Below, in pieces: positions 16,447-57,863 of a stretch of DNA of 64,000 nucleotides; position 1 is the first letter of the stretch, and each line of letters begins with the position of its first letter. The translations under genes and the position numbers were made by a program. The stretch lies in sequence record OQ031072; one strand, given 5' to 3'. This DNA comes from Shigella phage SFPB. The notes under the pieces were generated by a model that saw only the letters and a list, made by a program, of their open reading frames with translations, did no database searches and had not been told where the DNA came from.

Positions 16447-16457
16447 AATTAATATAA

Positions 16458-27796: not shown

Positions 27797-27803
27797 AAAT
27801 AGT

Positions 27804-27832
27804 TTGACAGGGGCTGAAAAGCCCCTTAGAAT
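27804..27832 (+). promoter_or_regulatory. sigma70-like promoter TTGACA-N17-TAGAAT with GGGGCT/AGCCCC hairpin in spacer
   Basis: Consensus match. Confidence 0.5.
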
Positions 27833-27875
27833 ACGAACCACTAAGTAATTTTAAACAACAAAGAGAGATATTGAA

Positions 27876-28988
27876 ATGACTACTAAGACTAAAGCACAAA
27901 TCGACGCAGAAATCTATGCACTGGTTAAAGAAGGTAAACTGACCAAAACTGCAATCGCTCTGAAGTATAACACTTCAACCCGTTCGGTAGGTCGTGCTGT
28001 AGAGCGTCATGAAGCAACGCTGCTGTCAGGGAAAACCAAAGCAAAACCTGCAAAGACTCTGAAAGATATTGCTAAGAAAGCTAAAGCAACCAAGAAAGTA
28101 TCTAAGCAGAAAACTGTTGCAAAAGCTGTTAAAGAAGCAGTCAAAACAGAACCTGTGAATGCTCTGCATGAAGCAATGCAGAATAACAGCCAGATTGAAT
28201 ACATGATTACTGGTGATTCTGTTATCATGACTTTCGGTGCAGAGTCTGAGATTGTTGAGTCAACTCATCCTAACTACACTGATATTGTAATGGCTGTTGT
28301 TTCAGGTGAGTACAAGAAAGCTTTTGAACTGATGAACATTCACAAGTCTATTGAGAACTTCACTCAAGGTGCTGTAACCATCAAAGGTGACAACCTGTAT
28401 TACGGTGCTGTTCAGATGCGCTCAACTCTGGTAGACCGTATTCTGGATATGATGAAGAAAGGTGATAATGGTTTTGTTCGACTGATTGCATTCTTCGAAA
28501 AACTTATGGAAAACCCATCAAAAGATTCTGTAGAACAACTTTGGGGCTTCGTATCACACCTTGATGTTGAAATTGATGAAGAAGGTTATATCATCGGCTG
28601 GAAGAAAGTCACAACCCGTGGTGGTAAACTGTTTGACTCTCGTACCTGCAAAGTTCCAAATGATTTGGGTAACATTGTAGAGATGCCACGTTGGATGGTT
28701 GATAATAACCGTCATGTAACCTGCTCTCAGGGTCTGCACGTTGGTGCTTGGGATTATGTAACTAGCTTCTCTGGTGACACTATCCTGAAAGTTCGTGTTC
28801 ATCCTCGTGATGTTGTTTCAGTACCAACTGACTACAACGACATGAAAATGCGAGCTTCCCGTTATGAAGTTGCAGCGATTGTAAATAGTCGCCGTGAAGT
28901 CATCAAAGAGTGGGATGGTTCAGAAGCACTCCACGTAGTTGTAGGTACTGCTGGTGAACTGATTTCTCAGCGTAAACGTGAAGTCTAA
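27876..28988 (+). CDS. rIIB: rIIB-like protein
   Basis: 370 aa directly downstream of rIIA-like gene; N-terminal region resembles T4 rIIB. Confidence 0.55.
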   Translation: MTTKTKAQIDAEIYALVKEGKLTKTAIALKYNTSTRSVGRAVERHEATLLSGKTKAKPAKTLKDIAKKAKATKKVSKQKTVAKAVKEAVKTEPVNALHEAMQNNSQIEYMITGDSVIMTFGAESEIVESTHPNYTDIVMAVVSGEYKKAFELMNIHKSIENFTQGAVTIKGDNLYYGAVQMRSTLVDRILDMMKKGDNGFVRLIAFFEKLMENPSKDSVEQLWGFVSHLDVEIDEEGYIIGWKKVTTRGGKLFDSRTCKVPNDLGNIVEMPRWMVDNNRHVTCSQGLHVGAWDYVTSFSGDTILKVRVHPRDVVSVPTDYNDMKMRASRYEVAAIVNSRREVIKEWDGSEALHVVVGTAGELISQRKREV

Positions 28989-30787: not shown

Positions 30788-30797
30788 AGTTATTATA

Positions 30798-30839: not shown

Positions 30840-31187
30840 ATGACGTTTAAAGAATTTTGTCAAGCAGCTTTTGTAATCATTTTCTTAACAGGTGTTGGTG
30901 CTTGGGGAGGTTACACTTACAAGACCAGCCAAGTTAATGAAAAGGAGCTAACTAACCAGAGACTTGTAAGCGTTGCTAAAGATGCTTATCAAGAAGGTTT
31001 ATCAAATCTTAGCTCCAATTACAAAAATGATTTGAAAGATGTGCTTGCTAAAAACAAACACACCAAAGAGGTATTGAACTATGAAAAAACTAAGACAGTC
31101 TTTATTAATGATTGTGCTACTGAGCCTTATGTCAGGGTGTTCAACGAACAAAGTGAGCAGTACCTTCAAAAACTCCCAAGTAAGTGA
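30840..31187 (+). CDS. putative i-spanin (N-terminal TM + coiled coil)
   Basis: TM segment FVIIFLTGVGAWGGYTY; overlapped out-of-frame by lipoprotein ORF. Confidence 0.35.
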   Translation: MTFKEFCQAAFVIIFLTGVGAWGGYTYKTSQVNEKELTNQRLVSVAKDAYQEGLSNLSSNYKNDLKDVLAKNKHTKEVLNYEKTKTVFINDCATEPYVRVFNEQSEQYLQKLPSK

Positions 31188-31347
31188 GAGTGACAAGTAT
31201 ACTCAAGAAGAAGCACGTTATGAGGTTAAAGGCACTAAAGGTGAAGACCTTGCAAGTGCTCTTGAGTTTTATCGTGATGGTTACTATGAATGTACTATTA
31301 AGGCAAACAATTTAATTGATATGATTTTGTTAGGGAATAAGCAGTAA
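31081..31347 (+). CDS. putative o-spanin lipoprotein
   Basis: Signal peptide + lipobox LMSGC; starts inside preceding gene in another frame. Confidence 0.35.
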   Translation: MKKLRQSLLMIVLLSLMSGCSTNKVSSTFKNSQVSESDKYTQEEARYEVKGTKGEDLASALEFYRDGYYECTIKANNLIDMILLGNKQ

Positions 31348-38992: not shown

Positions 38993-39520
38993 ATGAATAA
39001 GTTCCAAGCAATTAATCATATCCGTTCCAATGCAGTAATGAGCAAGCCAGTAAAAGACACCTTCGAATTTCGCTGTAATGACAAGTTGTTTGCAGTCATT
39101 ACGAAAGGGGAAGATAAAAAGTATTATGTACATCGCCAAAACGTTAAGGCGGTAACAGCAGATAACTTTATGCAAGCTGTTGCAAAAATTCTACCGGATT
39201 TTATGGAACTGGTAGCAGAACTTTGTGAACACTGCATCAAGTCATCAAAGGCAGAATTAAACCGCTTTAAAATGGCTTATGAGCGTTCTATCAAGTCTCA
39301 TAACATGTATATCATGCCATTGGCTTTTGGTACTCAGGCAATGGGAACAGGTTGTCATCCTTGCCACCTTTACGATGTAGAAAGCATTTACCTTAGTGAG
39401 ACAAAAGATATTGATTTTAGTTTACAGTTAGGACAAGCATTAAACGATATGATTAAATTACACGAAAAATCCGTAAAAGATATGCAAAAAGAGCTTGACG
39501 AAATCATCGTAAATCTATAA
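38993..39520 (+). CDS. hypothetical protein (cassette-driven)
   Basis: ORF track 175 aa. Confidence 0.5.
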   Translation: MNKFQAINHIRSNAVMSKPVKDTFEFRCNDKLFAVITKGEDKKYYVHRQNVKAVTADNFMQAVAKILPDFMELVAELCEHCIKSSKAELNRFKMAYERSIKSHNMYIMPLAFGTQAMGTGCHPCHLYDVESIYLSETKDIDFSLQLGQALNDMIKLHEKSVKDMQKELDEIIVNL

Positions 39521-39580
39521 AGTACTTATCAACGGGGAGGGAATGACCTTCCCCAACAATCCTAAACTGGAGACTAGAAA

Positions 39581-39844
39581 ATGAATAATCAAGAAATCAC
39601 TATCCTGTTACAAATTGGCACTGACAAAGAAGATATCCAACTTTGCAAACGTATTGAGAGTGATTGGTTCAACGGTGAAATCATCGCAGAATCTTATGAA
39701 GTAGTTGGATTCATGAATGGTGAAGTTGTAAGCCATTTTGGTTTAACTAAATCTGAAGCCGTTGCAAAGTATGACGTTTTATCTTGTGAGATTCTTACAA
39801 AATACAATGAAAAAAGACTTGCAACTTATGCAGCAATGAATTAA
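39581..39844 (+). CDS. hypothetical protein (cassette-driven)
   Basis: ORF track 87 aa. Confidence 0.5.
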   Translation: MNNQEITILLQIGTDKEDIQLCKRIESDWFNGEIIAESYEVVGFMNGEVVSHFGLTKSEAVAKYDVLSCEILTKYNEKRLATYAAMN

Positions 39845-39907
39845 TATTACTTTCAACGGGGAGGAGACTCCCCACTAAAACAAAATTCTAAACTGGAGAC
39901 TAGAAAG

Positions 39908-40084
39908 ATGAATTTTGAACAGCGTATGATTAGTAAATTTGGTGCTAAACGTTGGGAAGAGATGAAAAAAGAGCACGAAGAAAGAAAAAATGAAGAAACG
40001 GTAGTTATCACTGGTGTAGACTTACTAAATCACTCAGTTACTAACTATATCTTATCTGGTAACTCTTATAAGAAAGTTATCTAA
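39908..40084 (+). CDS. hypothetical small protein (58 aa, cassette-driven)
   Basis: Cassette + ATG; below cutoff. Confidence 0.3.
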   Translation: MNFEQRMISKFGAKRWEEMKKEHEERKNEETVVITGVDLLNHSVTNYILSGNSYKKVI

Positions 40085-40156
40085 TAAGTGTTGACAAGGG
40101 GTGTAAAAGCCCCTACTATTTAGAACCTAAACAATCCTAAACTGGAGAATCTGAAA

Positions 40157-40408
40157 ATGGCTACTATCCGCGCAACTGTTAATAATTTTGGCTTCCACGT
40201 ATTAGATGTTAAATTCGATATGGTTGGAACTGCCGATGCTTTCGGCATGGTTGATATGTGTCTAAAAGCAACTATTCAGGACTACAATCAATCTGAGTGG
40301 TTCTGGAAAGAAGTAAAACAAGAAGTCTTAAAGGATGGCGTATCCTCTTACTATTGGGGTGATTCTCTTATCACGCTTTACTATGAAGTTGACGGCTTCA
40401 ATAACTAA
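40157..40408 (+). CDS. hypothetical protein (cassette-driven, last of array)
   Basis: ORF track 83 aa. Confidence 0.5.
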   Translation: MATIRATVNNFGFHVLDVKFDMVGTADAFGMVDMCLKATIQDYNQSEWFWKEVKQEVLKDGVSSYYWGDSLITLYYEVDGFNN

Positions 40409-40449
40409 CAAGACGCCGCAACGGGGCAAATAGCCCCAGACCCTATACA

Positions 40450-40472
40450 AGCCCCTTCAATGGGGCTTTTTG
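40450..40472 (+). terminator. rho-independent terminator
   Basis: AGCCCC-TTCAAT-GGGGCT + TTTTT. Confidence 0.7.
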
Positions 40473-42017
40473 ACGTCTATACAATCTCTTTCTAGACTCT
40501 TACCAGACATTTAGAATAATAACTCTATAGATTACTCTATAACCTCTTATCAAATCAACTAACTTTTCCCTTAAATATAAGCCCATAACCCGAAAGGGAA
40601 GGGCAATCCCTAAAACGCTCTATAACGCTCTATACGGGCTTATCATCTCATCTTAAGCAATCATATTAAACCATTCTTAAAAGCCCTTCATAGAGCTTTC
40701 TAGAGCCTTAAAAGAATCTTATAAGGATATAAGCTTTATTATCTCGTTAGTATCTTGTGAATGGTTAAACAGGGGCTTGATAATAGCTTTAAAGTATGTT
40801 ATGGAGACTAAAAAGAGCTTAAAAGTAACGTAAAAGATGCTTAAAAGTAACGTAAAAGTTAGCCCCCTTTACATTCTCTTAACAAAATCTTAACAAATGC
40901 AACATAGTTATGCTTATTAGAGACTTGTTAAGCCTCAGTTAAATCCTTGTTAGAGGTATGTTAAAAGCTTGTTAGACACTTTGAAGTCCCTGTATAAGCC
41001 CCTAGAAAGCCCTATAAAGAGCTATACAGGTATTTGGGGTGTAGTTACTAGGGAGAATCTTAGAAGAGGCTATACAGAGCTACAGAGAACTTTTAAGAGG
41101 GCTTTATAGAGAATCACTAAGAAGGGAAGGGAACTATAGACCAAGAGATAGTGACCATGTTAATAGCTTGTTAAAAAGGTTTAGAACTTGTTAGCATCTT
41201 GTTAATTATCTTAACAAAATAACTATTAAGATTTAACTATTTAGCAACTTATAAGCAACTTGTTAGATTCTTGTTAGTAATGTTACAGAATGGTTAAGTT
41301 CTTGTTAGTTCTGTTAAGGGATTGTTAAGAACTCTGAAGAGATGTTAAGAGCTTGAGAGAGTTGTTAAGAGATTGTTAATGATATTTTAAGATTTTGCAA
41401 AGGGGATGTTACAGGGCTGTTAAGGGCTACCAAGCAGATATACACCCATGAGGTAGATTCTACCGAATCCACTAGTAGATATTTTTAGATTCTCCAAAGA
41501 CCCTAAAAAGTAACCTACCTAGTCTATTTTATAAAAATTTTATAGAACTGAATAACTATCTATACACTATCTTATATAAAACAGGAATTAACAGGCTTAT
41601 AAGATACCTTGTTAGTACCGTGTTAGACCTTGTAGGATAAGCCTTTACAGGGAATACCTGTTTAGTGTTATATAACAGTCTATATAGAGGCTTAGTTGAC
41701 CCTAGTGAACCATCTATAGAGAGTACTCTCTGTGACATAGAGATTAAGATGGATATAGGGGCTTCTAAGGGGCTATGAAGAGACTAGGAAGGTGATTATA
41801 TAGGTTTGGAAGAGGGCTTGTTAGAGAGCTTTGTAGAGGGCTATTTAGAAGGGGCTATATAGTTTCACTAGATAGAGACTAAGAGGCTATATAGATACTA
41901 TATAATACTATATAGAGAGTATGCTTAGATAGGTTGTTTAGAAGGTCTAGATATTTTATCACATATCATGGTGACCCAAGATGAACGGAGTGAATCCAAA
42001 TTTTATAAAATAATAAA
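40473..42017. repeat. ORF-free repeat-dense region; candidate origin or terminus-associated region
   Basis: No credible ORF; many short repeats (CTTGTTAG/TTGTTAAGA family, GCTATA(T/C)AGAG family); bounded by convergent terminators. Confidence 0.5.
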
Positions 42018-42036
42018 AGCCCCAAAAGAGGGGCTG
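42018..42036 (-). terminator. hairpin terminator at end of minus-strand operon
   Basis: AGCCCC-AAAAGA-GGGGCT with A-run on plus side. Confidence 0.5.
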
Positions 42037-42044
42037 TAAAGTTC

Positions 42045-42710
42045 TTAGCAAAGGTTATCTATGACAGCCTGAATAGCTGGAATAGTTGTGTGATAAAAAT
42101 GAGTGTTTCCGTTATGGGCTTCTCTCACTTGTAACATGATAGAGTGACCCTTTACAGGGAAGCATTGAATGTGATAACGATTCCCGTTAAATACTACTCC
42201 ACCACCTGAACAGAACCCTTCCAAGACTGACTTAGCAAGGAACTCTTCTTTCCCTGTGACCTTTATGAAGACACCCCTGTTAACTTGTGAATGGTAAATG
42301 TCTTCCATAAACAGCATCTGTTGTCCACCAAGTGAAACCATAGAGATACCTTTACGATTCTGCTCTTTAACATATATCTCAAGTTTCTTCAAAGTCTCTT
42401 CATAGAACGGATAAGACTTCTTCACAAAGATACCTTCAAGTGGCTCATCACCAGCATCTTCACGTTCATCTTTAAGTCTCTCTACAAGACAATTAAGACT
42501 TCTTCTCTCGCTATCGTCAAGATACTTATTGATATCTTCCAAGCTAAGTACCAAGTACTTTCTCTCTAAGTTAAATTCTTTGGTCATCTCTATCAAATCC
42601 TTAAAAGCTTTTTCAGTAACCTTCTTCCATTCTTCTGAGTTCTTCTTCTGAGGGAGTACCATATCTCTCAAGAACTTGAAACTCTTCTTCAGACGGGCTT
42701 CCATAATCAT
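42045..42710 (-). CDS. hypothetical protein
   Basis: ORF track 221 aa. Confidence 0.45.
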   Translation of the reverse strand: MIMEARLKKSFKFLRDMVLPQKKNSEEWKKVTEKAFKDLIEMTKEFNLERKYLVLSLEDINKYLDDSERRSLNCLVERLKDEREDAGDEPLEGIFVKKSYPFYEETLKKLEIYVKEQNRKGISMVSLGGQQMLFMEDIYHSQVNRGVFIKVTGKEEFLAKSVLEGFCSGGGVVFNGNRYHIQCFPVKGHSIMLQVREAHNGNTHFYHTTIPAIQAVIDNLC

Positions 42711-42715
42711 ACTCT

Positions 42716-43174
42716 TCAGAAATCGATTCTGTAGTCTGAACGGCTATAGTTTGCTGTAATGAATCCATCGTAACCTACCAACCATCTTCCATAGGTGTTA
42801 AAAATTGAAGTGTTATCAGCACTCATAATATCACCTTCATAGCCTAAATCGTCAATCTCTCTAACAAGCTTAATAGAGCCGACTGTTTCACCTGTTGGTG
42901 CATGTTTGATGATGTATACACGATTTAATTTACAATCTTCTTCTTCTTCACGTAAATCATATGGCTTCAGTAAATCTCTATCTGCTTGTAAGTTGGACTC
43001 TGAAAAAGCTGCATGAACCATGTAAGCTTCTGAACACTCCCAGATAAAGCTATGAAGAAGAACCTTTGCAGCATTTCTTGAACAATCAAATTCTGCAACG
43101 ATATCTTTGTACATGTCATCTTTAGTTCCGTTGTTAAGCAAAGCTTTACGGACTACCTCTTTAACATTCTTCAT
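42716..43174 (-). CDS. hypothetical protein
   Basis: Track ORF 169 aa; likely start MKNVKE at 43174. Confidence 0.4.
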   Translation of the reverse strand: MKNVKEVVRKALLNNGTKDDMYKDIVAEFDCSRNAAKVLLHSFIWECSEAYMVHAAFSESNLQADRDLLKPYDLREEEEDCKLNRVYIIKHAPTGETVGSIKLVREIDDLGYEGDIMSADNTSIFNTYGRWLVGYDGFITANYSRSDYRIDF

Positions 43175-43457
43175 CTTTCCAATCCTCATCCCTCTCAATC
43201 TGAAACTCATCAGGCAACTCTGCAATAGCTTTCAAGTAATATGCTTCTTGAATACTACAGAGGTCTTCATAACCACCATTCATAAGCCAGTTGTAACCAG
43301 CAGGTACACCATCTTCATCACAGAACCCTGTGTAGAACATCGCTTTATGAATCATGTTAAGTGGCTTGTAAGCAACTTCAACGATGTAGAAAGTGTTATC
43401 TTTCCAACCACCCTTTGGAGGATGGATACCTTTAACGCCTCTGGATTGTGGAGTCAT
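43161..43457 (-). CDS. hypothetical protein
   Basis: ORF track 98 aa. Confidence 0.4.
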   Translation of the reverse strand: MTPQSRGVKGIHPPKGGWKDNTFYIVEVAYKPLNMIHKAMFYTGFCDEDGVPAGYNWLMNGGYEDLCSIQEAYYLKAIAELPDEFQIERDEDWKDEEC

Positions 43458-43498
43458 AGATTTTCCTCTAAACAGGGGCTTTTACACCCCTTGACAGA

Positions 43499-43708
43499 TT
43501 ACTCTTCAGCAGATTCTTTATCTTTCTTTGAAGAAGTCTTTTTATCTTTCTTCTTAGTCTCAGTTGCTGCAATAGCAATGTCAACAAGCTGTGCTAAGTC
43601 AGATTTAATCACTGTTACTGGTTGTTCGTTGTAGAAACCTTTCTCAAGGTACTCTTTGAACTCTTCCAGAGTGTTAAAGCCAAAAGGCTTGACAGGTGTT
43701 CTAATCAT
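43499..43708 (-). CDS. hypothetical protein (Lys-rich C-terminus)
   Basis: ORF track 69 aa. Confidence 0.4.
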   Translation of the reverse strand: MIRTPVKPFGFNTLEEFKEYLEKGFYNEQPVTVIKSDLAQLVDIAIAATETKKKDKKTSSKKDKESAEE

Positions 43709-43778
43709 TTACCCTCCGAGATATCTTTTAAGATTTTCTGGTTAATCATTTCCGCAATAGCATAGCGGATACAAACTA

Positions 43779-44285
43779 CTAAAATTTTAGGTTGCATTCT
43801 TTACTTACCTCTTCAAACTTACTCTCAAACTCTACAATCTTCTTCTTGTAAGTTGTCATTCTCAAACATGAGAGGATGATACCAACTATTGGAATCACAT
43901 ACAAGAACCAAATCTCAGAAATTTTCTTCTCAGCTTGGTTAAACGTTAAATCCTGCATGTACATGCCACCGAATGAGATTACACAAATCATAGCAAGGAA
44001 TACAGATAACATGATTGCTATTCCTGCCCACCCTCTGGTATTATGTTCAGCATTTCTACGCTTATTTTCCAGATTGATAAGTTCGTTGTAGTCTGCTGAG
44101 AAGTCTCTGTAGAAAGCTTTCAAGTACTCTCTGCTGTAACCTTCAAAACATCCTGTACCAAACCAATTTTCACCTCCAAAGTGTGAAATAGTTCCTTCTT
44201 CACCGTTTGCTTTCACAATCTTGAAAGATACATGGTGTCTTGACTTCTCATAAGAAATCTGGTCTCTTGAATCTTCATAAATCAT
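43779..44285 (-). CDS. membrane protein (two predicted TM helices)
   Basis: ORF track 168 aa; hydrophobic AGIAIMLSVFLAMICVI and IWFLYVIPIVGIILSCL. Confidence 0.4.
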   Translation of the reverse strand: MIYEDSRDQISYEKSRHHVSFKIVKANGEEGTISHFGGENWFGTGCFEGYSREYLKAFYRDFSADYNELINLENKRRNAEHNTRGWAGIAIMLSVFLAMICVISFGGMYMQDLTFNQAEKKISEIWFLYVIPIVGIILSCLRMTTYKKKIVEFESKFEEVSKECNLKF

Positions 44286-44500
44286 TGTTCAATCCTCTTT
44301 AATCGTGCATTCCACTCTCTGTCAATCATTCTCTGGAATGTCTTACCTCTTGGAGTAACATTCTTAAGTGACTCTTCAGTACATACCAGAATATCACCTC
44401 TGGCAAACTTGCCATAGCACTGTTTAGTCTTCTTAGCTCGTCTGTACTGCTCAGAAACAGAGAGCTTCCAGTATTCACCTAGAGTTGTAAACTTTTTCAT
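44282..44500 (-). CDS. hypothetical protein
   Basis: ORF track 72 aa. Confidence 0.4.
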   Translation of the reverse strand: MKKFTTLGEYWKLSVSEQYRRAKKTKQCYGKFARGDILVCTEESLKNVTPRGKTFQRMIDREWNARLKRIEQ

Positions 44501-45237
44501 TCTTTCACCATTGCATTGTAGAATTGCCTTTGAATCTCTTCAGCAATCTGATAAGGTGTTAAACCAGCTTTTAACATCATCCTTACTGTGTACTCAATGT
44601 CATTCTTATTAACCACATGGTCTGTGACACTGATTGCTTCTTTTAACTCTTCAGCTTTCTTTTTAGCATCTTCACAAGCATTGGTCAACATGGAGTCAAA
44701 TTTCTTTTGTGGTGTAGTCCAAGCATGGCTATGTGGATTCGCATCACAGAAATACTTGAAGTAATCTCTGACATTATCTACGACCAGAGTTTGATGACCG
44801 TTTTCTTTAGCTTGATATCTAGACTCTTGCTCAGGTACATCTGCGAGTCTGTGTGTAGGAGCCTCAATAGTAACATCAATCGTTCTAACCTTTGGAGTTA
44901 CCTCTTTCTTCAGAGTCGGAGTTGCCTCAAAAGTTGCCTTTTCAGACTCTTCATCTTTAACAATTCCAGTATCTACCAAAGCAATACCAAGGAGGTCTCT
45001 AAAGCTTCCTGTGAATACCAGATTTTCTATATCAGCAGTTGAATAAACTTTACCAGCCCACAAATGTCCTTCTGCAAGGTTTTGAGAATCTGGGTACAGC
45101 TTGAAGTGTATATTTTTCAAAGGTCTGAAGTACACCACACCACTATCAGAGACATGTGTGACCGTGGCTGCAACTCTACGCAATGGGTTTTCCTTGACAT
45201 ATATAAATATTGTATCTGATTCATTAACTTTGTTCAT
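44497..45237 (-). CDS. hypothetical protein
   Basis: ORF track 246 aa. Confidence 0.45.
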   Translation of the reverse strand: MNKVNESDTIFIYVKENPLRRVAATVTHVSDSGVVYFRPLKNIHFKLYPDSQNLAEGHLWAGKVYSTADIENLVFTGSFRDLLGIALVDTGIVKDEESEKATFEATPTLKKEVTPKVRTIDVTIEAPTHRLADVPEQESRYQAKENGHQTLVVDNVRDYFKYFCDANPHSHAWTTPQKKFDSMLTNACEDAKKKAEELKEAISVTDHVVNKNDIEYTVRMMLKAGLTPYQIAEEIQRQFYNAMVKE

Positions 45238-45307
45238 TTTATCTCTCCAACAAAAAAGGGAACCACCTTTCGATAGCTCCCATCATACAAAATTCTAGAT
45301 ATTACTG

Positions 45308-45901
45308 TCAAGTATATTTTCTAGGCAGTAACTTACTTTTTCTGCTTCGAACATCTTCAAGGATAGCTATGAAGTCATCAGAAGCACCCTTCCAAGGGCT
45401 GAAGTTTGGGATATGCTGACGAATAGCTTCAATAATCGTCTTCATACCTGTGTTCTTCGTCCACCAATCTGAGCTTGAAGCAGTCATAACAAAGAACTGC
45501 TCATCATCGGTTAAGATGACCTCTTTAGTGAATGGGGAGGTGTACGTGGTGATAACTGAACCGCCATTCATGTAATATGTACGCTTGTGGACTTTATCAA
45601 GCATATCATGTAGGTCACCAAACAGTTTCACAACCTCTTGGTGGTTAATGTCTTTCTCAAGGTCTAAACGGTACTTCAGAAGTGCTTCATCAACTTCTTT
45701 AGATGAGAACTTAAAGTACTGCACATCTTCAATGATACATGCAGAGATGTTGTTCACATCCATAGTCAATTTGACAACTTTTGCTGGTGAGTTAATGTTT
45801 GGCTGGAACGCAGCAAGCACACCCTGAACATTACCGTAGTGTTGAACTAATGCAACTTGTGGAGAATCAACTCCACCATTTTCTTTAATGTTTACACTCA
45901 T
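45308..45901 (-). CDS. hypothetical protein
   Basis: ORF track 197 aa. Confidence 0.45.
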   Translation of the reverse strand: MSVNIKENGGVDSPQVALVQHYGNVQGVLAAFQPNINSPAKVVKLTMDVNNISACIIEDVQYFKFSSKEVDEALLKYRLDLEKDINHQEVVKLFGDLHDMLDKVHKRTYYMNGGSVITTYTSPFTKEVILTDDEQFFVMTASSSDWWTKNTGMKTIIEAIRQHIPNFSPWKGASDDFIAILEDVRSRKSKLLPRKYT

Positions 45902-45902
45902 A

Positions 45903-46247
45903 CTATAACTTCCTCACTAAATACTTTTTAAGTGGTGTCTTCGGTTTTTCAAAGACCTCAATAGAATCTATTTTGATGCCCTCACCACGCATACCTGTGG
46001 ATTGGTAGATGTAGAACTCAAGCATCCCTATATTTTTAGCTGGCATATCATGCTTAACAAAGATGGTCACTGAATCTTCACTTTTAAAGATTACTGTACC
46101 ATCTTTATACACAAGCTTATCAGGTTGTTTATAGTCAAGCATATCAAACATCAGAAATAGTCTTTGCTGACATTTGTCCAGCCTTGATGACAGGGCTTCT
46201 TGTATATCTGCAAAATTCTTATAAACAACGATGTGGAGCTTAAGCAT
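45903..46247 (-). CDS. hypothetical protein
   Basis: Track ORF 145 aa; likely start MLKLHIV at 46247 overlapping upstream stop. Confidence 0.4.
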   Translation of the reverse strand: MLKLHIVVYKNFADIQEALSSRLDKCQQRLFLMFDMLDYKQPDKLVYKDGTVIFKSEDSVTIFVKHDMPAKNIGMLEFYIYQSTGMRGEGIKIDSIEVFEKPKTPLKKYLVRKL

Positions 46248-46533
46248 CTGCGTATTCTCTGACGAAGAAGTAGTTGATTTTGTTATCAGATACCAGAAGG
46301 TCATAGCAAGTAATTTCGAACTTACTCTTTTCAGCATCATAGCTGGTGTATGGCTCAGAAACTTGCTTTGTTGACACTTTTGGGTTATTAGGGTTTAAAA
46401 GGCCACCATAAAGTTTCTTAATGGCCTTTGATACCACACTCCAGATAACATCATCAGTGAGTTCTTCGTACAGGTCAAACTCAGCTTCGTAGCTGAAGTC
46501 ATTAATCGGAAAGATAACCTGTACTTTACTCAT
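46240..46533 (-). CDS. hypothetical protein
   Basis: ORF track 97 aa. Confidence 0.4.
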   Translation of the reverse strand: MSKVQVIFPINDFSYEAEFDLYEELTDDVIWSVVSKAIKKLYGGLLNPNNPKVSTKQVSEPYTSYDAEKSKFEITCYDLLVSDNKINYFFVREYADA

Positions 46534-46534
46534 A

Positions 46535-46915
46535 TCAAACTACCTGTGTAACTTGCAACGCTTCTGTTACGGAGATATCACCGACTTTTTCTTCTTTGAT
46601 GAAGGTGAAAGTTAGAAGAGTTGGTTCTTTAACCTCATCTTCCCGAGGTACACCATTCAGTTCATCAAAGATAGCTTGTGTAGTCCAATCTTCCTGACCG
46701 TCTGGGTAGTGGTAAGCATATTTGTTAAAGTTCAGGTCAAACCATCCAAAAATTGGACAACCATCTGCATCATCCCCTCGGTGGTCTAATGTGCTACCTG
46801 ATTCAAACTGTAACTTCAGTTTCCCATTGTCTTGGAAAATAATTGCTTTTGCAAAATCGCGGCAATCGTTATCATCGTGACCTGAAGTGTCAACCAATAC
46901 ATCAATCTTATTCAT
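46535..46915 (-). CDS. hypothetical protein
   Basis: Track ORF 159 aa; likely start MNKIDV at 46915 overlapping upstream stop. Confidence 0.4.
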   Translation of the reverse strand: MNKIDVLVDTSGHDDNDCRDFAKAIIFQDNGKLKLQFESGSTLDHRGDDADGCPIFGWFDLNFNKYAYHYPDGQEDWTTQAIFDELNGVPREDEVKEPTLLTFTFIKEEKVGDISVTEALQVTQVV

Positions 46916-47318
46916 AATAACCTCTCTCAGCTTTCTCAATTTTATCCAGAAGTTTAATACACTCATTGTTATGGTATGTAGCCTCACTCTGGTGTAACTT
47001 CTTCTTCTGCTCAAGTAGAACTTTATAGTAACCTGATAACTGCTCTCTTGTCAAGGGGTGCTCTGAAATAATATCAAGAGAACTTTCACCTAAAGGTGAG
47101 AACATGCCATTGTCATCCACGTTGTACAGTTCACCAGCAAAGAAACCTTTGTTAGCCATTGTGATAGGTGAACGTTCAATGACCTCAACAACAAACTTTG
47201 TGAACACCTTATCTCCCATCGTAATCAACTTGGTTCCTGCAATACGAACCTTCATACCACTTCTTGTGTACTTGAAAGTACCATTATCATCTGCCCAAAG
47301 CTTCATAGTTTTCTCCAT
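46908..47318 (-). CDS. hypothetical protein
   Basis: ORF track 136 aa. Confidence 0.4.
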   Translation of the reverse strand: MEKTMKLWADDNGTFKYTRSGMKVRIAGTKLITMGDKVFTKFVVEVIERSPITMANKGFFAGELYNVDDNGMFSPLGESSLDIISEHPLTREQLSGYYKVLLEQKKKLHQSEATYHNNECIKLLDKIEKAERGYYE

Positions 47319-47321
47319 AGA

Positions 47322-47346
47322 AATAAAAAAGGCTCCCGAAGGAGCC
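47322..47346 (-). terminator. rho-independent terminator (minus strand)
   Basis: GGCTCC-CGAA-GGAGCC with A-run on plus strand. Confidence 0.6.
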
Positions 47347-47356
47347 TCTTAATCTA

Positions 47357-47827
47357 CTATTTTGGATAAACAGCGTCAAGGTAAATCTTGGCTTCCAAAC
47401 TACGTCTATTTTGTAGACCCTTGGAAGTTACTTTTTGACCATTCACTGTAATCTTGTTCCACCACTGCATAGCTTCTGCACAACCAACTTTATTACCAGC
47501 ATTGTGACGCTTGATAAAAGTTGAATCCTGCATAGCACCGATACCAATGTTGTAAGTCTCTACAACAAGTGCGTCAAATTCGTTCTGCGTAGTCGGAACC
47601 TTAATTGCTCTGTTTACTGCACCTACATAACTTTCAACATCTGCAAGGAGATATTGAACAGCTTGTTCAGCAGTAATCTTCATCCCCATTGTTACAGGTC
47701 TTCCGTTGATACGGATTGTTCCATAACCAATTGTAGGGATTCCAGCAGAGTCTTTATAGGCTTCTAAGCGAAGCCCTTCAAAGAACTTAATGGCTTCTAA
47801 GCCTTTACTTGAGAGTTGCATTATCAA
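47357..47827 (-). CDS. endolysin, GH24 lysozyme
   Basis: LEAYKDSAGIPTIGYGT matches GH24 catalytic motif. Confidence 0.85.
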   Translation of the reverse strand: MIMQLSSKGLEAIKFFEGLRLEAYKDSAGIPTIGYGTIRINGRPVTMGMKITAEQAVQYLLADVESYVGAVNRAIKVPTTQNEFDALVVETYNIGIGAMQDSTFIKRHNAGNKVGCAEAMQWWNKITVNGQKVTSKGLQNRRSLEAKIYLDAVYPK

Positions 47828-48456
47828 CCTCCTACTGCGTTAATAACCACCTTGGCAGATTGGGATGTGATTGAGCCACCTACACCAGTTACAACACAAG
47901 AGTAAGTACCTTCATCATCAGCTTTAGAAGTCGGTGTCTTTTCATATGTTGCAGATGTTGCTGAAGGGATATCTACATCATCTTTCTTCCACTGATAACC
48001 AGTTGCACCAGTGGCAACAACTGAAAGTGTAAGTGTTCCACCCTCGTTAACAGTTTGGTCAGTTGGCTGCTGTGTAATAACTGGAGGTGTGATTGCATCC
48101 TTCAACTTTGCATTAAGCATGGAGAAAGGTTTAACCCTTGCAAGCCATTCACAGTAAATAGTGTCAACATCTTTACCGTTGATGATTGCATACTGCAAAT
48201 CCATGAAGAAGTCAGCAGTTCTCATTTGAGCACCTACAGAGTATAGGAGTTCTTCAGAGAATGGAACTGTGTAGCTTGGGGTGTAGTTGAAATCGGTAAC
48301 CTCAGCAATGTCTGACTCAGGCCACGGAGAGCTATATGTCAGTGGTAGCACAGCTTCTTGATACGTTCTGAAGTCGTATCTCTTACCAGCTTTAACATTC
48401 GCAATAAAAACTTTTACGAACTCTTTAAAATCTGGATATGTTTTTGCTTTAATCAT
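47824..48456 (-). CDS. protein with C-terminal Ig-like domain
   Basis: C-terminus ...TLTLSVVATGATGYQWKKDDVDI...GTYSCVVT Ig-like; N-terminal domain paralogous to next ORF. Confidence 0.45.
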   Translation of the reverse strand: MIKAKTYPDFKEFVKVFIANVKAGKRYDFRTYQEAVLPLTYSSPWPESDIAEVTDFNYTPSYTVPFSEELLYSVGAQMRTADFFMDLQYAIINGKDVDTIYCEWLARVKPFSMLNAKLKDAITPPVITQQPTDQTVNEGGTLTLSVVATGATGYQWKKDDVDIPSATSATYEKTPTSKADDEGTYSCVVTGVGGSITSQSAKVVINAVGG

Positions 48457-56664: not shown

Positions 56665-56670
56665 AATATT

Positions 56671-56746
56671 AGCAGTGTAGCATAACTGGAAATGCACCAG
56701 CCTCTGAAGCTGAAAGATTAAGGTTCAAATCCTTATACTGCTGCCA
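56671..56746 (+). tRNA. tRNA-Gln (anticodon CTG)
   Basis: Acceptor AGCAGTG/TACTGCT; loop CTCTGAA; G73; CCA. Confidence 0.55.
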
Positions 56747-56777
56747 CTTCTAAGGGTTCTTACGAGAGTCCTTAAAT

Positions 56778-56854
56778 GTGGCCTTATCATAAATGGATAA
56801 TGACCCATGCTGTGAACATGGTCTATACGGGTTCGATTCCCGTAGGTCACCCCA
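56778..56854 (+). tRNA. tRNA-His (anticodon GTG)
   Basis: Anticodon stem CCATG/CATGG, loop CTGTGAA; C73; CCA. Confidence 0.6.
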
Positions 56855-56861
56855 ATTTAAT

Positions 56862-56937
56862 AGCTCAATTAGCTTATATGGTTAAAGCGCGTGTCTGAAA
56901 AACATGAGAACAGGGTTCAAATCCCGATGGGCTACCA
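56862..56937 (+). tRNA. tRNA-Phe (anticodon GAA)
   Basis: Loop CTGAAAA; A73; CCA; T-stem weak. Confidence 0.5.
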
Positions 56938-56953
56938 ACTTTATAGGTGCATA

Positions 56954-57688
56954 ATGAAAGAGATGACAGAACAAAGTAAAGAGATTTTTAATCTCCTTAA
57001 AACCGGTAATGGTTTCTCAAACCCTCTTATTACTGGTGCAGCAGTTCTTGGTGGTACAGTTGCCGCTTCTCAGTCATTAGTAACTTCTATTGGTTCTGTA
57101 TCAGACCCAGCCACACAGCAAATTCTTATTGCTGCTGGACTGACAACAGCCTTATTAGGAAGCTTCACAACAAGCCTTGGAAGTACAACTTCAACGACAA
57201 GTACACTCACTGAGTATGGACAAAAGTCTGTAGATGAGTTTTCACAGCGTATGCAGGTAGCTAAAGGCTACTCTAACGTCATGGGAGCAGTAGGTGAGCA
57301 AGTTGGATGTACACCATTTAGTGGCATTATGGGTGTAGCTACTGAGTACGGCAATAAAGCGATGGATTTGATTAATACCTCCATAGACGCTGTAAACAGC
57401 GTTCTAAGCGATTTGCAAGATGCAATCGATAAAGGACTAGGGACAATCTCTGAACTCGCTACACAGGCTGTTACAGCGATTAATGAGGGCATTGCAAAGA
57501 TTACTGCATATGCTAACGAAGTAGCTCAGATGATTGCAGATGAAGCAGCATTGATTGCAGAATACCTGAAAACAAATATTAATGGTTTCCTTGCAAATGT
57601 TCTACCAAGCTGGTTTGATGATTCATGTAAAACTGGTGTGATTGATACTATTGCAACTCCAGAGATGAAAGAAGCTCTGAACAAATAA
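56954..57688 (+). CDS. hypothetical Ala/Ser/Thr-rich protein with N-terminal hydrophobic segment
   Basis: ATG 56954 just after tRNA-Phe (track start 56891 overlaps tRNA). Confidence 0.45.
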   Translation: MKEMTEQSKEIFNLLKTGNGFSNPLITGAAVLGGTVAASQSLVTSIGSVSDPATQQILIAAGLTTALLGSFTTSLGSTTSTTSTLTEYGQKSVDEFSQRMQVAKGYSNVMGAVGEQVGCTPFSGIMGVATEYGNKAMDLINTSIDAVNSVLSDLQDAIDKGLGTISELATQAVTAINEGIAKITAYANEVAQMIADEAALIAEYLKTNINGFLANVLPSWFDDSCKTGVIDTIATPEMKEALNK

Positions 57689-57689
57689 T

Positions 57690-57781
57690 GGAAGATTAAC
57701 CCTAAAGGTAAGGGAGCAGTTTGCTAAACTGCCAGTAACCGAGAAATCGGCGTACCAGTTCAAGTCTGGTATCTTCCTCCA
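57690..57781 (+). tRNA. tRNA-Ser (anticodon GCT), long variable arm
   Basis: Acceptor GGAAGAT/ATCTTCC; anticodon stem GCAGT/ACTGC, loop TTGCTAA; CCA. Confidence 0.6.
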
Positions 57782-57787
57782 AATTAT

Positions 57788-57863
57788 GTGTCGGTGTCAG
57801 AAATGGTTATGTGCCTGTCTGCAAAACAGGTTTATGAGGGTTCGAGTCCCTTCCGATACTCCA
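57788..57863 (+). tRNA. tRNA-Cys (anticodon GCA)
   Basis: Anticodon stem CCTGT/ACAGG, loop CTGCAAA; U73; CCA. Confidence 0.6.

What the first reader, a model, noticed from the sequence alone, without database searches (positions are those of the whole stretch)
42045..47318. Minus-strand operon of 12 unknown genes between the repeat region and the lysozyme
Seen: twelve consecutive minus-strand ORFs (60-246 aa), many with ATGA/TAATG-type overlaps, no recognisable catalytic motifs, one two-TM membrane protein (43779..44285), terminated by a hairpin at 42018..42036. Inference: accessory cluster of unknown role; given its position beside the endolysin it could include holin/antiholin or host-interaction functions.
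Basis: inference. Interest (0 to 1): 0.4.

Follow-up and report, generated by a model that had tools for sequence, protein, structure and literature searches.

The report
Unknown accessory operons in FelixO1-like phage
The window comes from a FelixO1-like (Mooglevirus) phage, and the flagged stretch holds 13 real, conserved genes of unknown function, arranged in two separately promoted units, that are neither virion parts nor recognisable lysis genes; it is ordinary phage "dark matter" already present in hundreds of sequenced relatives.

Summary
Twelve minus-strand ORFs, a two-TM protein and a terminal hairpin are at the stated coordinates, and there is also a conserved 30-aa ORF (43705-43797).

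The window is a Mooglevirus (Ounavirinae). The stretch is 98.7% identical to Shigella phage Henu11 and syntenic with about 250 FelixO1-like genomes.

All 13 ORFs are under purifying selection (dN/dS 0.02-0.49). Each matches only a PHROG of unknown function. Pfam, NCBIfam, PADLOC, PDB sequence searches and two AlphaFold models with fold searches gave no function.

It is two units, not one operon: g12-g8 and g7-g1. Each is preceded by a conserved sigma-70-like promoter whose -10 hexamer abuts the upstream terminator hairpin.

Published data on orthologues:
- They are transcribed mostly mid-infection (Felix O1 RT-PCR).
- They are absent from virion proteomes (Felix O1, Sf14).
- They scored "Not Fit" in a SUSP1 CRISPRi-ART screen.
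- Curated holin and spanin candidates lie elsewhere in the genome.

So "accessory, non-structural" is supported, while "holin/antiholin" is not. The "D-Ala-D-Ala carboxypeptidase" label that some records give g11 is unsupported.

Two leads remain:
- g11 carries a swapped, highly variable N-terminal half.
- The g8 orthologue is the strongest negative outlier in the SUSP1 screen.

Interest is low.

The parts
47351..47379 (-). Sigma-70-like promoter for unit 1 (TTGACG-17-TAGATT), inside the 3' end of the lysozyme gene. Its -10 hexamer ends exactly where the terminator hairpin begins.
   Evidence: The CTTGAC -35 element is invariant in 8 phages of three genera. This part is coding, so that conservation is weak evidence. 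ASO1B annotators predicted a promoter at the same place.
47327..47350 (-). Intrinsic terminator of the Hoc-like/lysozyme unit (GGCUCC-UUCG-GGAGCC plus U-run).
   Evidence: dG -15.7 kcal/mol, z -3.9. Identical core in all 8 relatives compared. Annotated as a terminator in Mordin.
46908..47318 (-). g12, 136 aa as the longest ORF. The likely true start is 47306 (132 aa). phrog_4266. Felix01p068, SUSP1 agp123 and Sf14 gp18 orthologue.
   Evidence: dN/dS 0.10-0.17. Only one 50%-identity cluster in 1.84 billion representatives.
46535..46915 (-). g11, 126 aa, acidic (pI 4.3), phrog_4348. Felix01p066 and SUSP1 agp122 orthologue. Predicted mostly-beta fold with one helix and a C-terminal beta-hairpin. 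Labelled 'D-alanyl-D-alanine carboxypeptidase' in some records; that label is not supported here.
46721..46915 (-). Variable cassette: the N-terminal half of g11 (codons 1-65), exchanged relative to the otherwise 99-100% identical Henu11.
   Evidence: N-half: 45% aa identity, pS 0.75. C-half: 97% identity, pS 0.05. The DNA identity profile dips to 0.63-0.77 only here. 125 clusters at 90% identity against 16 (g8) and 24 (g5). Alignment A3.
46240..46533 (-). g10, 97 aa, acidic (pI 4.5), phrog_4385. Felix01p064 orthologue.
45903..46247 (-). g9, 114 aa, basic (pI 9.1), phrog_4040. Felix01p062 orthologue.
45308..45901 (-). g8, 197 aa, phrog_4109. Felix01p060 and SUSP1 agp119 orthologue. Sub-threshold DUF5092 hit. 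No fold match. Its SUSP1 orthologue is the most negative gene in the CRISPRi-ART screen.
45282..45311 (-). Sigma-70-like promoter for unit 2 (TTGACA-18-TATGAT, 11 of 12). The -35 overlaps the g8 stop codon. The -10 abuts the hairpin.
   Evidence: Hexamers are invariant and the spacer sequence varies across Mooglevirus, Suspvirus and Felixounavirus.
45258..45281 (-). Intrinsic terminator of unit 1 (GGGAGCUAUC-GAAA-GGUGGUUCCC plus U-run).
   Evidence: dG -16.0 kcal/mol, z -5.0. SUSP1 keeps the stem through compensatory changes. Annotated as a terminator in Mordin and ASO1B.
44497..45237 (-). g7, 246 aa, phrog_5380. Present in Mooglevirus and Suspvirus, absent from the Felixounavirus genomes compared.
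44282..44500 (-). g6, 72 aa, basic (pI 10.1), phrog_4459. Felix01p056 orthologue.
43779..44285 (-). g5, 168 aa inner-membrane protein, phrog_4343. Felix01p053 orthologue. Has an about 85-aa conserved N-terminal soluble domain, two TM helices and a conserved charged C-terminal tail. Predicted N-in/C-in topology.
   Evidence: Weak GpsB/DivIVA-like helix match at E 0.07. Topology follows from the positive-inside rule applied to the sequence (inference).
Mordin_102, Sf14 gp10 and SUSP1 agp115 orthologue.
   Evidence: dN/dS 0.07-0.20.
43499..43708 (-). g4, 69 aa, phrog_4457. Conserved N-terminal 50 aa with a variable Lys/Ser/Glu-rich tail. Has no TM segment, so the weak Phage_holin_9 hit (E 0.037) is discounted.
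43161..43457 (-). g3, 98 aa, acidic, phrog_9967. Member of a large metagenomic family of small phage proteins with no Pfam model. Consensus: PP.GGWK..T.YLV.VA....NPIH.A.FYTGFL...G.PGGYN.
   Evidence: In an N4-like Vibrio phage the homologue sits among small genes just upstream of a gene annotated DNA-directed RNA polymerase.
42716..43174 (-). g2, 152 aa, phrog_4713. Mosaic: 98% identical to Henu11, 86% to Silverhawkium, 53-56% to Sf14 and Mordin.
42045..42710 (-). g1, 221 aa (start uncertain: 42710, 42704 or 42662), phrog_4330. Residues about 46-125 form a module also found in T4-like phages of Cronobacter, Enterobacter and Klebsiella and in a Pantoea phage.
42018..42035 (-). Intrinsic terminator that ends unit 2. 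It faces the 1.6-kb non-coding repeat region.
   Evidence: dG -12.2 kcal/mol. Annotated as a terminator in Mordin, Michonne and ASO1B.

Best explanation
The stretch consists of two adjacent transcription units of non-structural accessory genes shared by FelixO1-like phages (Ounavirinae).
- Unit 1 (g12-g11-g10-g9-g8, 47318-45308) is conserved across all genera compared.
- Unit 2 (g7-g6-g5-g4b-g4-g3-g2-g1, 45237-42045) is a more mosaic zone with gene gain, loss and allele replacement.

Each unit starts at a host-type (sigma-70-like) promoter whose -10 hexamer directly abuts the terminator hairpin of the unit upstream. RNA polymerase arriving from upstream would transcribe the whole hairpin and stop. 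Polymerase starting at the promoter would begin inside the 5' arm of the hairpin, so its transcript cannot form the terminator and would run into the unit. This step is inferred. It would let the lysozyme unit, unit 1 and unit 2 be expressed independently by host polymerase.

The products most likely act inside the infected cell on host targets, for example in host takeover, counter-defence or exclusion. They are not virion parts or the core lysis machinery. They matter only under conditions not met on laboratory strains. The functional assignment is inference; no biochemical activity could be assigned to any of the 13 proteins.
For: Shown here:
- All 13 ORFs are real genes under purifying selection.
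- They are syntenic in about 250-295 Ounavirinae genomes.
- The terminators at 47350-47327, 45281-45258 and 42035-42018 are stable and conserved, with compensatory changes in SUSP1.
- The promoter hexamers are conserved across three genera while the spacer sequence varies.
- The arrangement of a -10 hexamer ending at the first base of the hairpin occurs at 5 of 16 hairpins in the window. Shuffled upstream sequence gives 0.04 expected, and 0 of 2000 shuffles reached 5.
- Unit 2 gene content differs between relatives: g7 is absent in Felixounavirus, an extra gene is present in Mordin and Sf14, and g3 was not detected in the SUSP1 or dune loci compared.
- The g11 N-terminal half is an exchanged, highly polymorphic cassette.

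From the literature on orthologues:
- Felix O1 genes 24-26, 28, 29 and 32-35 give maximal RT-PCR signal at 25 min. Gene 31 peaks at 5 min and gene 30 at 60 min. None of gp24-34 is in the virion proteome (PMC3185647).
- The Sf14 structural-protein table (cryo-EM plus mass spectrometry) lists none of gp5-gp18 (PMC11821841).
- SUSP1 agp112-agp123 are all 'Not Fit' in CRISPRi-ART (PMC11879866).
- The g3 homologue in an N4-like Vibrio phage lies among small genes just upstream of a gene annotated DNA-directed RNA polymerase.
Against: - No protein resembles any known host-takeover, anti-defence or exclusion protein in sequence or fold.
- Unit 1 is core-like: 60-80% aa identity across genera and tight translational coupling. 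That pattern is less typical of counter-defence islands and would also fit a conserved housekeeping or assembly-helper role.
- The CRISPRi-ART screen has many false negatives. The lysozyme, the putative holin and about half of agp001-agp030 (mostly the structural block) are also 'Not Fit', so dispensability of any single gene is weakly shown.
- The Felix O1 timing data are end-point RT-PCR.
- The promoters and the start-site-inside-hairpin mechanism are predictions. No 5'-end data exist.
Confidence: 0.55

Rival explanations
1. Lysis-control module. The two-TM protein g5 is the holin, or an antiholin or lysis-timing regulator, working with the adjacent lysozyme. Neighbours such as g8 modulate lysis timing.
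For: - g5 has two TM helices and a charged C-terminal tail, with predicted N-in/C-in topology like class II holins.
- The cluster lies downstream of the endolysin on the same strand.
- The holin of Ounavirinae has never been shown experimentally. Felix O1 authors listed five candidates, and Sf14 gp55 is labelled 'holin or lysozyme'.
- Guides against the g8 orthologue in SUSP1 are depleted about 8- to 100-fold only in the presence of phage. Earlier or more complete lysis could produce this.
Against: - g5 is separated from the lysozyme by two terminators and five genes.
- Its conserved parts are the 85-aa soluble N-terminal domain and the extreme C-terminus, while the TM helices vary. Holins show the opposite pattern.
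- At 168 aa it exceeds class II holins, which the literature gives as 65-95 aa.
- It has no holin family hit.
- Lysis-gene specialists annotated a different gene as the holin, and Felix O1 authors did not list the g5 orthologue.
- Lysis genes are scattered in this group.
- T4 rI and rIII are not negative in the same type of screen, so negative scores do not simply mark loss of lysis inhibition.
Confidence: 0.1
2. Morphogenesis helpers or low-copy virion proteins. Unit 1, directly downstream of the Hoc-like decoration protein and lysozyme, encodes assembly chaperones or minor structural proteins.
For: - Unit 1 is conserved in every Ounavirinae genome compared, with overlapping or 1-nt-spaced genes suggesting co-translation of a complex.
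- It neighbours a proven capsid decoration gene, the Sf14 gp20 homologue.
- The CRISPRi-ART screen misses about half of the structural-block genes.
- The small gene at 40157-40408 across the repeat region is a Felix O1 virion protein, showing that small virion proteins lie outside the main structural block.
Against: - None of the orthologues is among the virion proteins reported by shotgun MS for Felix O1, and none is in the Sf14 structural table.
- The units have host-type promoters, and Felix O1 timing is mostly middle, whereas structural genes 72, 73, 76 and 77 and the neighbouring genes 36 and 37 are late.
- No structural or chaperone family or fold match was found.
- All five unit-1 orthologues are 'Not Fit'. 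At roughly 50% sensitivity, missing all five by chance is unlikely.
Confidence: 0.1
3. Regulators of the phage's own programme, such as transcription, replication or RNA metabolism. Candidates include g7, with a helical C-terminal domain, and the small basic proteins g6 and g9 acting on nucleic acids.
For: - g6 (pI 10.1) and g9 (pI 9.1) are small and basic.
- Felix O1-like phages encode no RNA polymerase or recognised sigma or anti-sigma factor, so their temporal control is unexplained.
- The cluster borders a 1.6-kb iteron-like non-coding region.
Against: - No DNA- or RNA-binding domain was detected in any protein.
- The SUSP1 orthologues are not needed for growth.
- g7 is missing from Felixounavirus, so it cannot be a core regulator.
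Confidence: 0.1
4. Non-functional or decaying ORFs, that is, annotation noise.
For: - Several are unannotated in the closest record. Henu11 lists only 8 of the 13.
- No function is known for any of them.
Against: - dN/dS is 0.02-0.49 for all 13, with saturated synonymous divergence.
- Reading frames are intact across three genera.
- Each has an RBS, or a start overlapping the upstream stop (translational coupling).
- Transcripts were detected in Felix O1.
Confidence: 0.02

Closest known systems
Orthologous gene blocks of other Ounavirinae: Felix O1 genes 24-34 (Felix01p050-p068), SUSP1 AVU07_agp112-agp123, Sf14 gp5-gp18, Mordin_94-107, Henu11 gp50-57
   Same: Same genes in the same order and strand, between the non-coding repeat region and the lysozyme. 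The same terminators are present. Identity is 98.7% at DNA level to Henu11, and 43-100% at protein level to the loci compared (g7, and in some loci g3, have no match).
   Different: - The window and Henu11 lack the extra 151-aa gene that Mordin and Sf14 carry between g4 and g3.
- Felixounavirus lacks g7.
- The window carries a different allele of the g11 N-terminal half from Henu11, Sf14 and Mordin.
- None of these orthologues has an assigned function.
Blocks of small non-essential early or middle genes of large lytic phages, such as the many dispensable ORFs of T4 and the early region of N4-like phages
   Same: Works like them in these respects:
- Runs of short, tightly packed genes.
- Host-type promoters.
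- Not virion components.
- Dispensable on laboratory hosts.
- Mosaic content.
- The g3 homologue sits in such a block in an N4-like Vibrio phage, and the g1 module occurs in T4-like phages.
   Different: No individual gene is homologous to a characterised T4 or N4 accessory protein. Membership of any specific functional class (anti-restriction, host shut-off, exclusion) was not shown.
Class II holins (phage 21 S21 type)
   Same: g5 has two TM helices, predicted N-in/C-in topology and a charged C-terminal tail.
   Different: - It is 168 aa with an 85-aa conserved soluble N-terminal domain.
- Its TM helices are the least conserved part.
- It is not adjacent to the endolysin.
- It has no holin family match.
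- A different gene is the curated holin candidate.
VanY / LAS-type D-alanyl-D-alanine carboxypeptidases (the label some GenBank records give g11 orthologues)
   Same: Nothing beyond the propagated name.
   Different: - No Pfam, NCBIfam or PDB hit to any peptidase.
- No conserved His/Asp/His metal triad appears among the invariant columns.
GpsB/DivIVA N-terminal domain
   Same: A 35-residue stretch of g5 (FEGYSxEYLKAFYRDFxxDYNEL...) aligns with the GpsB helix [22 protein letters not shown]. This is the most conserved part of g5.
   Different: The match is E 0.07 only. The Pfam DivIVA model did not hit. g5 is an integral membrane protein of a phage of Gram-negative hosts, which to my knowledge lack GpsB/DivIVA. 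Treated as a lead only.

Membership tests
Virion structural (tail/capsid) proteins | Sequence or fold similarity to structural protein families | tested here: not met
   PHROG hits are all 'unknown function'. There are no Pfam structural domains. Fold searches for g8 and g11 gave no structural-protein match.
Virion structural (tail/capsid) proteins | Presence of the product in purified virions | not testable with these tools
   Literature on orthologues only. The Felix O1 MS list (Gp23, 36, 49, 53...) contains none of gp24-34. The Sf14 structural table contains none of gp5-gp18.
Holin (class II) - g5 | Small membrane protein with at least one TMD and a charged C-terminal tail | tested here: inconclusive
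   Two TMDs and a charged tail are present. At 168 aa, with an 85-aa soluble N-terminal domain, it is outside the usual 65-95 aa of class II holins.
Holin (class II) - g5 | Match to a known holin family | tested here: not met
   No holin Pfam, PHROG or NCBIfam hit. phrog_4343 is 'unknown function'.
Holin (class II) - g5 | Genetic linkage or co-transcription with the endolysin | tested here: not met
   Two terminators and five genes lie between them. Lysis genes are scattered in this phage group, and the curated holin candidate is elsewhere.
Holin (class II) - g5 | Hole formation or lethality on induction, and control of lysis timing | not testable with these tools
   SUSP1 agp116 knock-down scored 0.16, 'Not Fit', but the lysozyme did too, so the result is uninformative.
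D-Ala-D-Ala carboxypeptidase (VanY/LAS or PBP type) - g11 | Peptidase domain detectable by profile search | tested here: not met
   No Pfam hit at E 0.1 or better, and no NCBIfam hit. A profile of 42 homologues against PDB gave only enolase at E 2.1.
D-Ala-D-Ala carboxypeptidase (VanY/LAS or PBP type) - g11 | LAS or PBP fold with conserved catalytic residues | tested here: not met
DUF5092 (PF17010) - g8 | Score at or above the Pfam gathering threshold | tested here: not met
   24.8 bits against a cut-off of 27, E 2.4e-5, covering residues 31-111 only. A possible distant relationship to a family that is itself uncharacterised.
phrog_9967 family of small phage proteins - g3 | Full-length profile match and shared conserved motif | tested here: met
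   E 8e-65 over 98/98 positions. All 125 diverse members tested hit the same PHROG. Shared P14, G17, W18, Y24, N34, H37, G44, F45, P52, Y55. The family's function is unknown.
Rho-independent terminators | Stable GC-rich hairpin followed by a U-run, conserved at gene-unit ends | tested here: met
   dG -12.2 to -16.0 kcal/mol, z -2.5 to -5.0. Conserved with a compensatory variant in SUSP1. Termination itself was not measured.
Sigma-70 promoters | -35/-10 hexamers with 16-19 nt spacing, conserved while the spacer varies | tested here: met
   45311-45282 matches 11 of 12, and 47379-47351 matches 9 of 12. Conservation across three genera. Non-random position relative to hairpins.
Sigma-70 promoters | Transcription start mapped downstream of the -10 | not testable with these tools
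   No 5'-end data found for any Ounavirinae phage.
Known anti-phage-defence or defence proteins | Match to PADLOC models or to solved anti-defence structures | tested here: not met
   PADLOC gave only E 0.0014-0.018 chance-level hits. PDB sequence search found nothing. Only g8 and g11 could be modelled, and neither gave a convincing fold match. PADLOC holds defence proteins, not counter-defence proteins, so this test is narrow.

The most novel reading that the evidence does not exclude
Unit 1 could be an uncharacterised, Ounavirinae-specific module that tunes how the phage kills its host, or that counters a host factor.
- g11 would be its specificity subunit: an exchangeable, highly polymorphic N-terminal domain (weakly PH-like in the model) mounted on an invariant C-terminal beta-hairpin.
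- g8 would be a factor whose loss makes infection far more destructive to the cell. Its SUSP1 orthologue is the most negative of 138 genes in CRISPRi-ART. Six guides scored about -3 to -6.5 (per-guide means, replicate values -2.2 to -7.7) in all three phage replicates and about 0 without phage.

Separately, the recurrent arrangement of a promoter -10 abutting a terminator hairpin may be a dedicated insulator design that resets transcription between gene cassettes.
Probability: 0.15. Interest if true: 0.55.

Novelty: already known. Interest (0 to 1): 0.22.

Why it matters
As it stands the finding matters little. These genes are already deposited in about 250 FelixO1-like genomes as hypothetical proteins, and published expression, proteome and knock-down data already cover their orthologues.

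The check has practical value in five ways:
- It fixes gene starts and adds a missed 30-aa gene.
- It shows the stretch is two promoter-terminator-bounded units.
- It removes an unsupported enzyme label (g11 as D-Ala-D-Ala carboxypeptidase).
- It argues against the holin idea.
- It points to two testable leads, the polymorphic g11 N-terminal half and the g8 knock-down outlier.

These leads are relevant because Mooglevirus and Felixounavirus phages are being developed for Shigella, Salmonella and E. coli therapy, where accessory genes decide host range against defence-rich clinical strains.

Tried and rejected
- **Domain searches.** Pfam, PHROGs, NCBIfam and PADLOC scans of all proteins gave only PHROGs of unknown function. 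Sub-threshold hits (DUF5092, Peptidase_M15_2, Phage_holin_9, RdRP, PycTM, CARF) were judged to be chance.
- **PDB sequence searches.** phmmer of the concatenated 1696-aa protein set gave no hit at E 10 or better. Profiles of g3, g11 and g5 gave truncated haemoglobin at E 0.06 (rejected), enolase at E 2 (rejected) and GpsB at E 0.07 (kept as a weak lead).
- **Exhaustive HMMER search.** Eight concatenated proteins were searched against 1.84 billion representatives. Every family except g3 is confined to a handful of clusters. A Pfam scan of 125 g3 relatives found no common domain.
- **Apparent fusions.** g6-g3 and g3-g2 'fusion' hits (P0199, P0277, P0302) turned out on inspection to be g3 domains with unrelated Zn-ribbon-like or other extensions. 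They were rejected as Rosetta-stone evidence.
- **Paralogy.** None was found within the window.
- **Rfam.** Nothing was found for 39500-50500 at E below 0.3.
- **Lysis-inhibition idea.** I tested whether negative CRISPRi-ART scores mark loss of lysis inhibition, using T4 rI and rIII as calibrators. They score +0.6, so the idea is not supported.
- **Literature.** Searches for Felix O1 or Mooglevirus transcriptomes or holin experiments found no RNA-seq and no experimental holin.

Full report
**Identity of the window.** The 5.4-kb stretch 42000-47400 is 98.7% identical over 98% of its length to Shigella phage Henu11 (Mooglevirus, Ounavirinae). It matches 246 phage records by megablast and 257 by blastn. 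Almost all are Felix O1-like phages of Escherichia, Salmonella, Shigella and Citrobacter. The rest of the window fits the Felix O1 map:
- rIIA/rIIB at 25424-28988.
- i-/o-spanins at 30840-31315.
- A run of small plus-strand genes up to 40408.
- A 1.6-kb non-coding repeat region.
- A minus-strand block at 42045-49681 that includes the lysozyme (47357-47821) and a Hoc-like decoration protein (47824-48456).
- A DUF5681 gene, a vWA/DUF2828 gene and 25 tRNAs.

**Check of the observation.** All twelve ORFs are present. Ribosome-binding sites, orthologue lengths and PHROG alignments place the real starts of g2, g9 and g11 downstream of the longest-ORF starts, and probably that of g12 too. A thirteenth conserved ORF of 30 aa (43705-43797) lies between the membrane protein and g4. 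It is annotated in Mordin, Sf14 and SUSP1 and has its own PHROG.

Most junctions are overlaps of 4, 8, 14 or 19 nt or 1-nt spacers. Pairwise dN/dS against Mordin, Silverhawkium, SUSP1 and dune is 0.02-0.49 for every ORF, with synonymous sites often saturated, so these are genes and not chance ORFs. The two-TM protein and the terminal hairpin are as described.

**Anatomy: two units, not one operon.** Three strong hairpin-plus-U-run terminators lie on the minus strand:
- After the lysozyme: 47350-47327, UUCG tetraloop, dG -15.7.
- Between g8 and g7: 45281-45258, GAAA tetraloop, dG -16.0.
- After g1: 42035-42018, dG -12.2.

Immediately upstream of the first two sit sigma-70-like promoters:
- TTGACG-17-TAGATT at 47379-47351.
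- TTGACA-18-TATGAT at 45311-45282, matching 11 of 12 consensus positions.

In an alignment of eight phages from three genera, the hexamers and the hairpins are conserved while the promoter spacer differs. The SUSP1 hairpin keeps pairing through compensatory changes.

In both cases the -10 hexamer ends exactly at the first base of the hairpin. The same zero-gap arrangement occurs at 5 of 16 terminator-like hairpins in the window (also at 16456, 24611 and 30797 on the plus strand). Shuffled upstream sequence gives 0.04 expected, 0 of 2000 shuffles reached five, and 0.19% of random positions qualify.

Established promoter geometry puts the start site about 7 nt after the -10. A transcript started there would lack the GC-rich base of the hairpin and could not terminate. 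A transcript arriving from upstream would terminate. This reset mechanism is my inference; no 5'-end data exist.

The Felix O1 authors noted that they could not explain how transcription passes the many terminators. ASO1B annotators had predicted a promoter next to each of these terminators.

**Conservation pattern.** Unit 1 (g12-g8) is present in every genome compared, at 60-81% protein identity to other genera. Unit 2 is patchier:
- g7 is absent from Felixounavirus.
- Mordin and Sf14 carry an extra 151-aa gene between g4 and g3.
- g3 was not detected in the SUSP1 or dune loci.
- g1 and g2 are mosaic. g2 is 98% identical to Henu11 but 53-56% to Sf14 and Mordin.

Outside Ounavirinae, tblastn finds only three things:
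- A g3 relative in N4-like Vibrio phages.
- A 77-aa module of g1 in T4-like phages of Cronobacter, Enterobacter and Klebsiella, plus a shorter match in Pantoea phage Nafs113.
- A weak g8 match in one Listeria phage record.

**Search for function.**
- Every protein hits one PHROG of unknown function.
- Nothing reaches a Pfam or NCBIfam threshold. PADLOC gives nothing credible.
- The concatenated proteins have no PDB sequence relative at E 10 or better.
- The label 'D-alanyl-D-alanine carboxypeptidase' that several GenBank records give g11 orthologues therefore has no support.
- An exhaustive HMMER search of eight of the proteins against 1.84 billion representatives shows that g12, g9, g10, g7, g6, g2 and g1 are confined to a few clusters. 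g3 belongs to a large family, accounting for most of the 426 hits, with a conserved PP.GGWK...NPIH.A.FYTGF...GYN motif and no Pfam model.
- In an N4-like Vibrio phage the g3 relative lies in a run of small genes just before a gene annotated DNA-directed RNA polymerase.

**The membrane protein g5.** The 19-sequence alignment shows that the soluble N-terminal 85 residues and the last 15 residues are nearly invariant, whereas the two TM helices vary. Charge distribution predicts N-in/C-in topology (positive-inside rule applied to the sequence). Its most conserved helix aligns weakly (E 0.07) with the GpsB/DivIVA N-terminal helix. I keep this as a lead only.

It does not look like a holin. It is too large, its conserved parts are the wrong ones, it has no family match, and two terminators separate it from the lysozyme.

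The Center for Phage Technology annotations state that lysis genes are scattered in these phages. They place the putative holin at the end of the late operon after the tail fibre (CPT_Moogle54, SUSP1 agp028), outside this window. The Felix O1 authors' five holin candidates also exclude this block.

**Published experiments on orthologues.**
- *Felix O1.* This block is part of 'transcripton 40-24'. Genes 24, 25, 26, 28, 29, 32, 33, 34 and the lysin 35 gave maximal RT-PCR signal at 25 min. Gene 31 peaked at 5 min and gene 30 at 60 min. The virion proteome contains Gp23 and Gp36 but none of Gp24-34.
- *Sf14.* The structural-protein table (cryo-EM plus mass spectrometry) contains gp20, the Hoc-like protein, but none of gp5-gp18.
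- *SUSP1.* The transcriptome-wide CRISPRi-ART screen scored all of agp112-agp123 'Not Fit'.

The SUSP1 screen is insensitive. The lysozyme, the putative holin and about half of agp001-agp030 (mostly the structural block) were also 'Not Fit'. The result therefore argues that most of the block is dispensable on a laboratory strain, not that each gene is.

**Two leads.**

First, g11 is far more polymorphic than its neighbours. It has 125 clusters at 90% identity, against 16 for g8 and 24 for g5. The variation is in the N-terminal half and in a poly-Glu linker, while the C-terminal 60 residues are almost invariant. Against Henu11:
- The N-half is 45% identical with saturated synonymous differences (pS 0.75).
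- The C-half is 97% identical with pS 0.05.
- The flanking DNA is 99-100% identical.

So a segment of about 200 bp (about 46721-46915) was exchanged by recombination between old alleles. Such a pattern fits a protein with a conserved docking part and a variable recognition part. This is inference.

Second, the g8 orthologue agp119 has the most negative gene score in the SUSP1 screen (-4.81). Its six guides scored about -3 to -6.5 (per-guide means) in all three phage replicates and about 0 without phage. A tail-fibre gene (agp026, -4.59) and two small genes are the other negative outliers. T4 rI and rIII are not negative, so this is not simply loss of lysis inhibition. I cannot explain it.

**Verdict.** The stretch is a real, conserved pair of accessory gene units of FelixO1-like phages. 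The units are expressed from host-type promoters, are non-structural, and are apparently dispensable in the laboratory. No biochemical function could be assigned.

Its 'accessory' interpretation is supported, and its holin/antiholin suggestion is not.

The genes are already in public genomes, and their orthologues have been covered by expression, proteome and knock-down studies. Novelty is therefore nil at the level of the feature, and interest is low. The g11 cassette, the g8 knock-down outlier and the promoter-abutting-terminator design are the only points worth a follow-up.

Noticed in passing
window 40450-42040: A 1.6-kb non-coding stretch lies between convergent terminators (40445-40467 on the plus strand, 42035-42018 on the minus strand). 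It is packed with degenerate short motifs (YTTGTTAR, CTATA(C/T)AG), often 10-11 nt apart. Fifteen of the window's 40 YTTGTTAR matches fall within 40879-41824. It looks iteron-like and may be a replication origin or packaging region.
   Followed up: partly
window 16456 (+), 24611 (+), 30797 (+), 47350 (-), 45281 (-): A recurrent cassette: a sigma-70-like promoter whose -10 hexamer ends exactly at the first base of a terminator hairpin. It occurs at 5 of 16 hairpins, against 0.04 expected from shuffles. The hairpin at 30797 has the same sequence core (GGCTCCTTCGGGAGCC) as the one at 47350.
   Followed up: partly
window 47824-48456 and 48453-48821: The Hoc-like capsid decoration protein (Sf14 gp20 homologue) has only one Ig-like domain here (210 aa). 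Sf14 has three, and SUSP1 and KPS64 have two. The upstream 122-aa gene (phrog_4463) is a paralogue of its N-terminal capsid-binding domain.
   Followed up: partly
SUSP1 AVU07_agp119 (orthologue of window 45308-45901): This is the most negative gene score (-4.81) of 138 genes in the SUSP1 CRISPRi-ART screen. All six guides were depleted about 8- to 100-fold with phage and about 0 without. Other negative outliers are tail fibre agp026 (-4.59), agp132 (-3.69) and agp052 (-2.83). Unexplained.
   Followed up: partly
window 50072-50443: The DUF5681 protein is the first gene of the plus-strand block that diverges from the minus-strand block. Its SUSP1 orthologue agp130 is 'Fit' (2.43) in CRISPRi-ART. 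It is an important gene of unknown function.
   Followed up: no
window 40157-40408: This 83-aa protein (phrog_4559) is the last plus-strand gene before the repeat region. Its Felix O1 orthologue (Gp23, Felix01p049) was detected in virions by mass spectrometry, far from the structural gene block.
   Followed up: no
window 43161-43457 (g3) and proteins P0177-P0310: g3 belongs to a large family of small phage proteins (phrog_9967) that accounts for most of the 426 hits in a library of 50%-identity cluster representatives. No Pfam model covers it. Members often carry unrelated N-terminal extensions, some Cys-rich.
   Followed up: partly
window 52101-57863: A block of 25 tRNA genes on the plus strand. 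ARAGORN reported no tmRNA, although the Moogle genome announcement reports an ssrA gene.
   Followed up: no
locus L001 (Henu11 OM953433): The closest GenBank record annotates only 8 of the 13 genes in this stretch. g10, g6, g4b, g4 and g3 are intact in its sequence but not called.
   Followed up: yes
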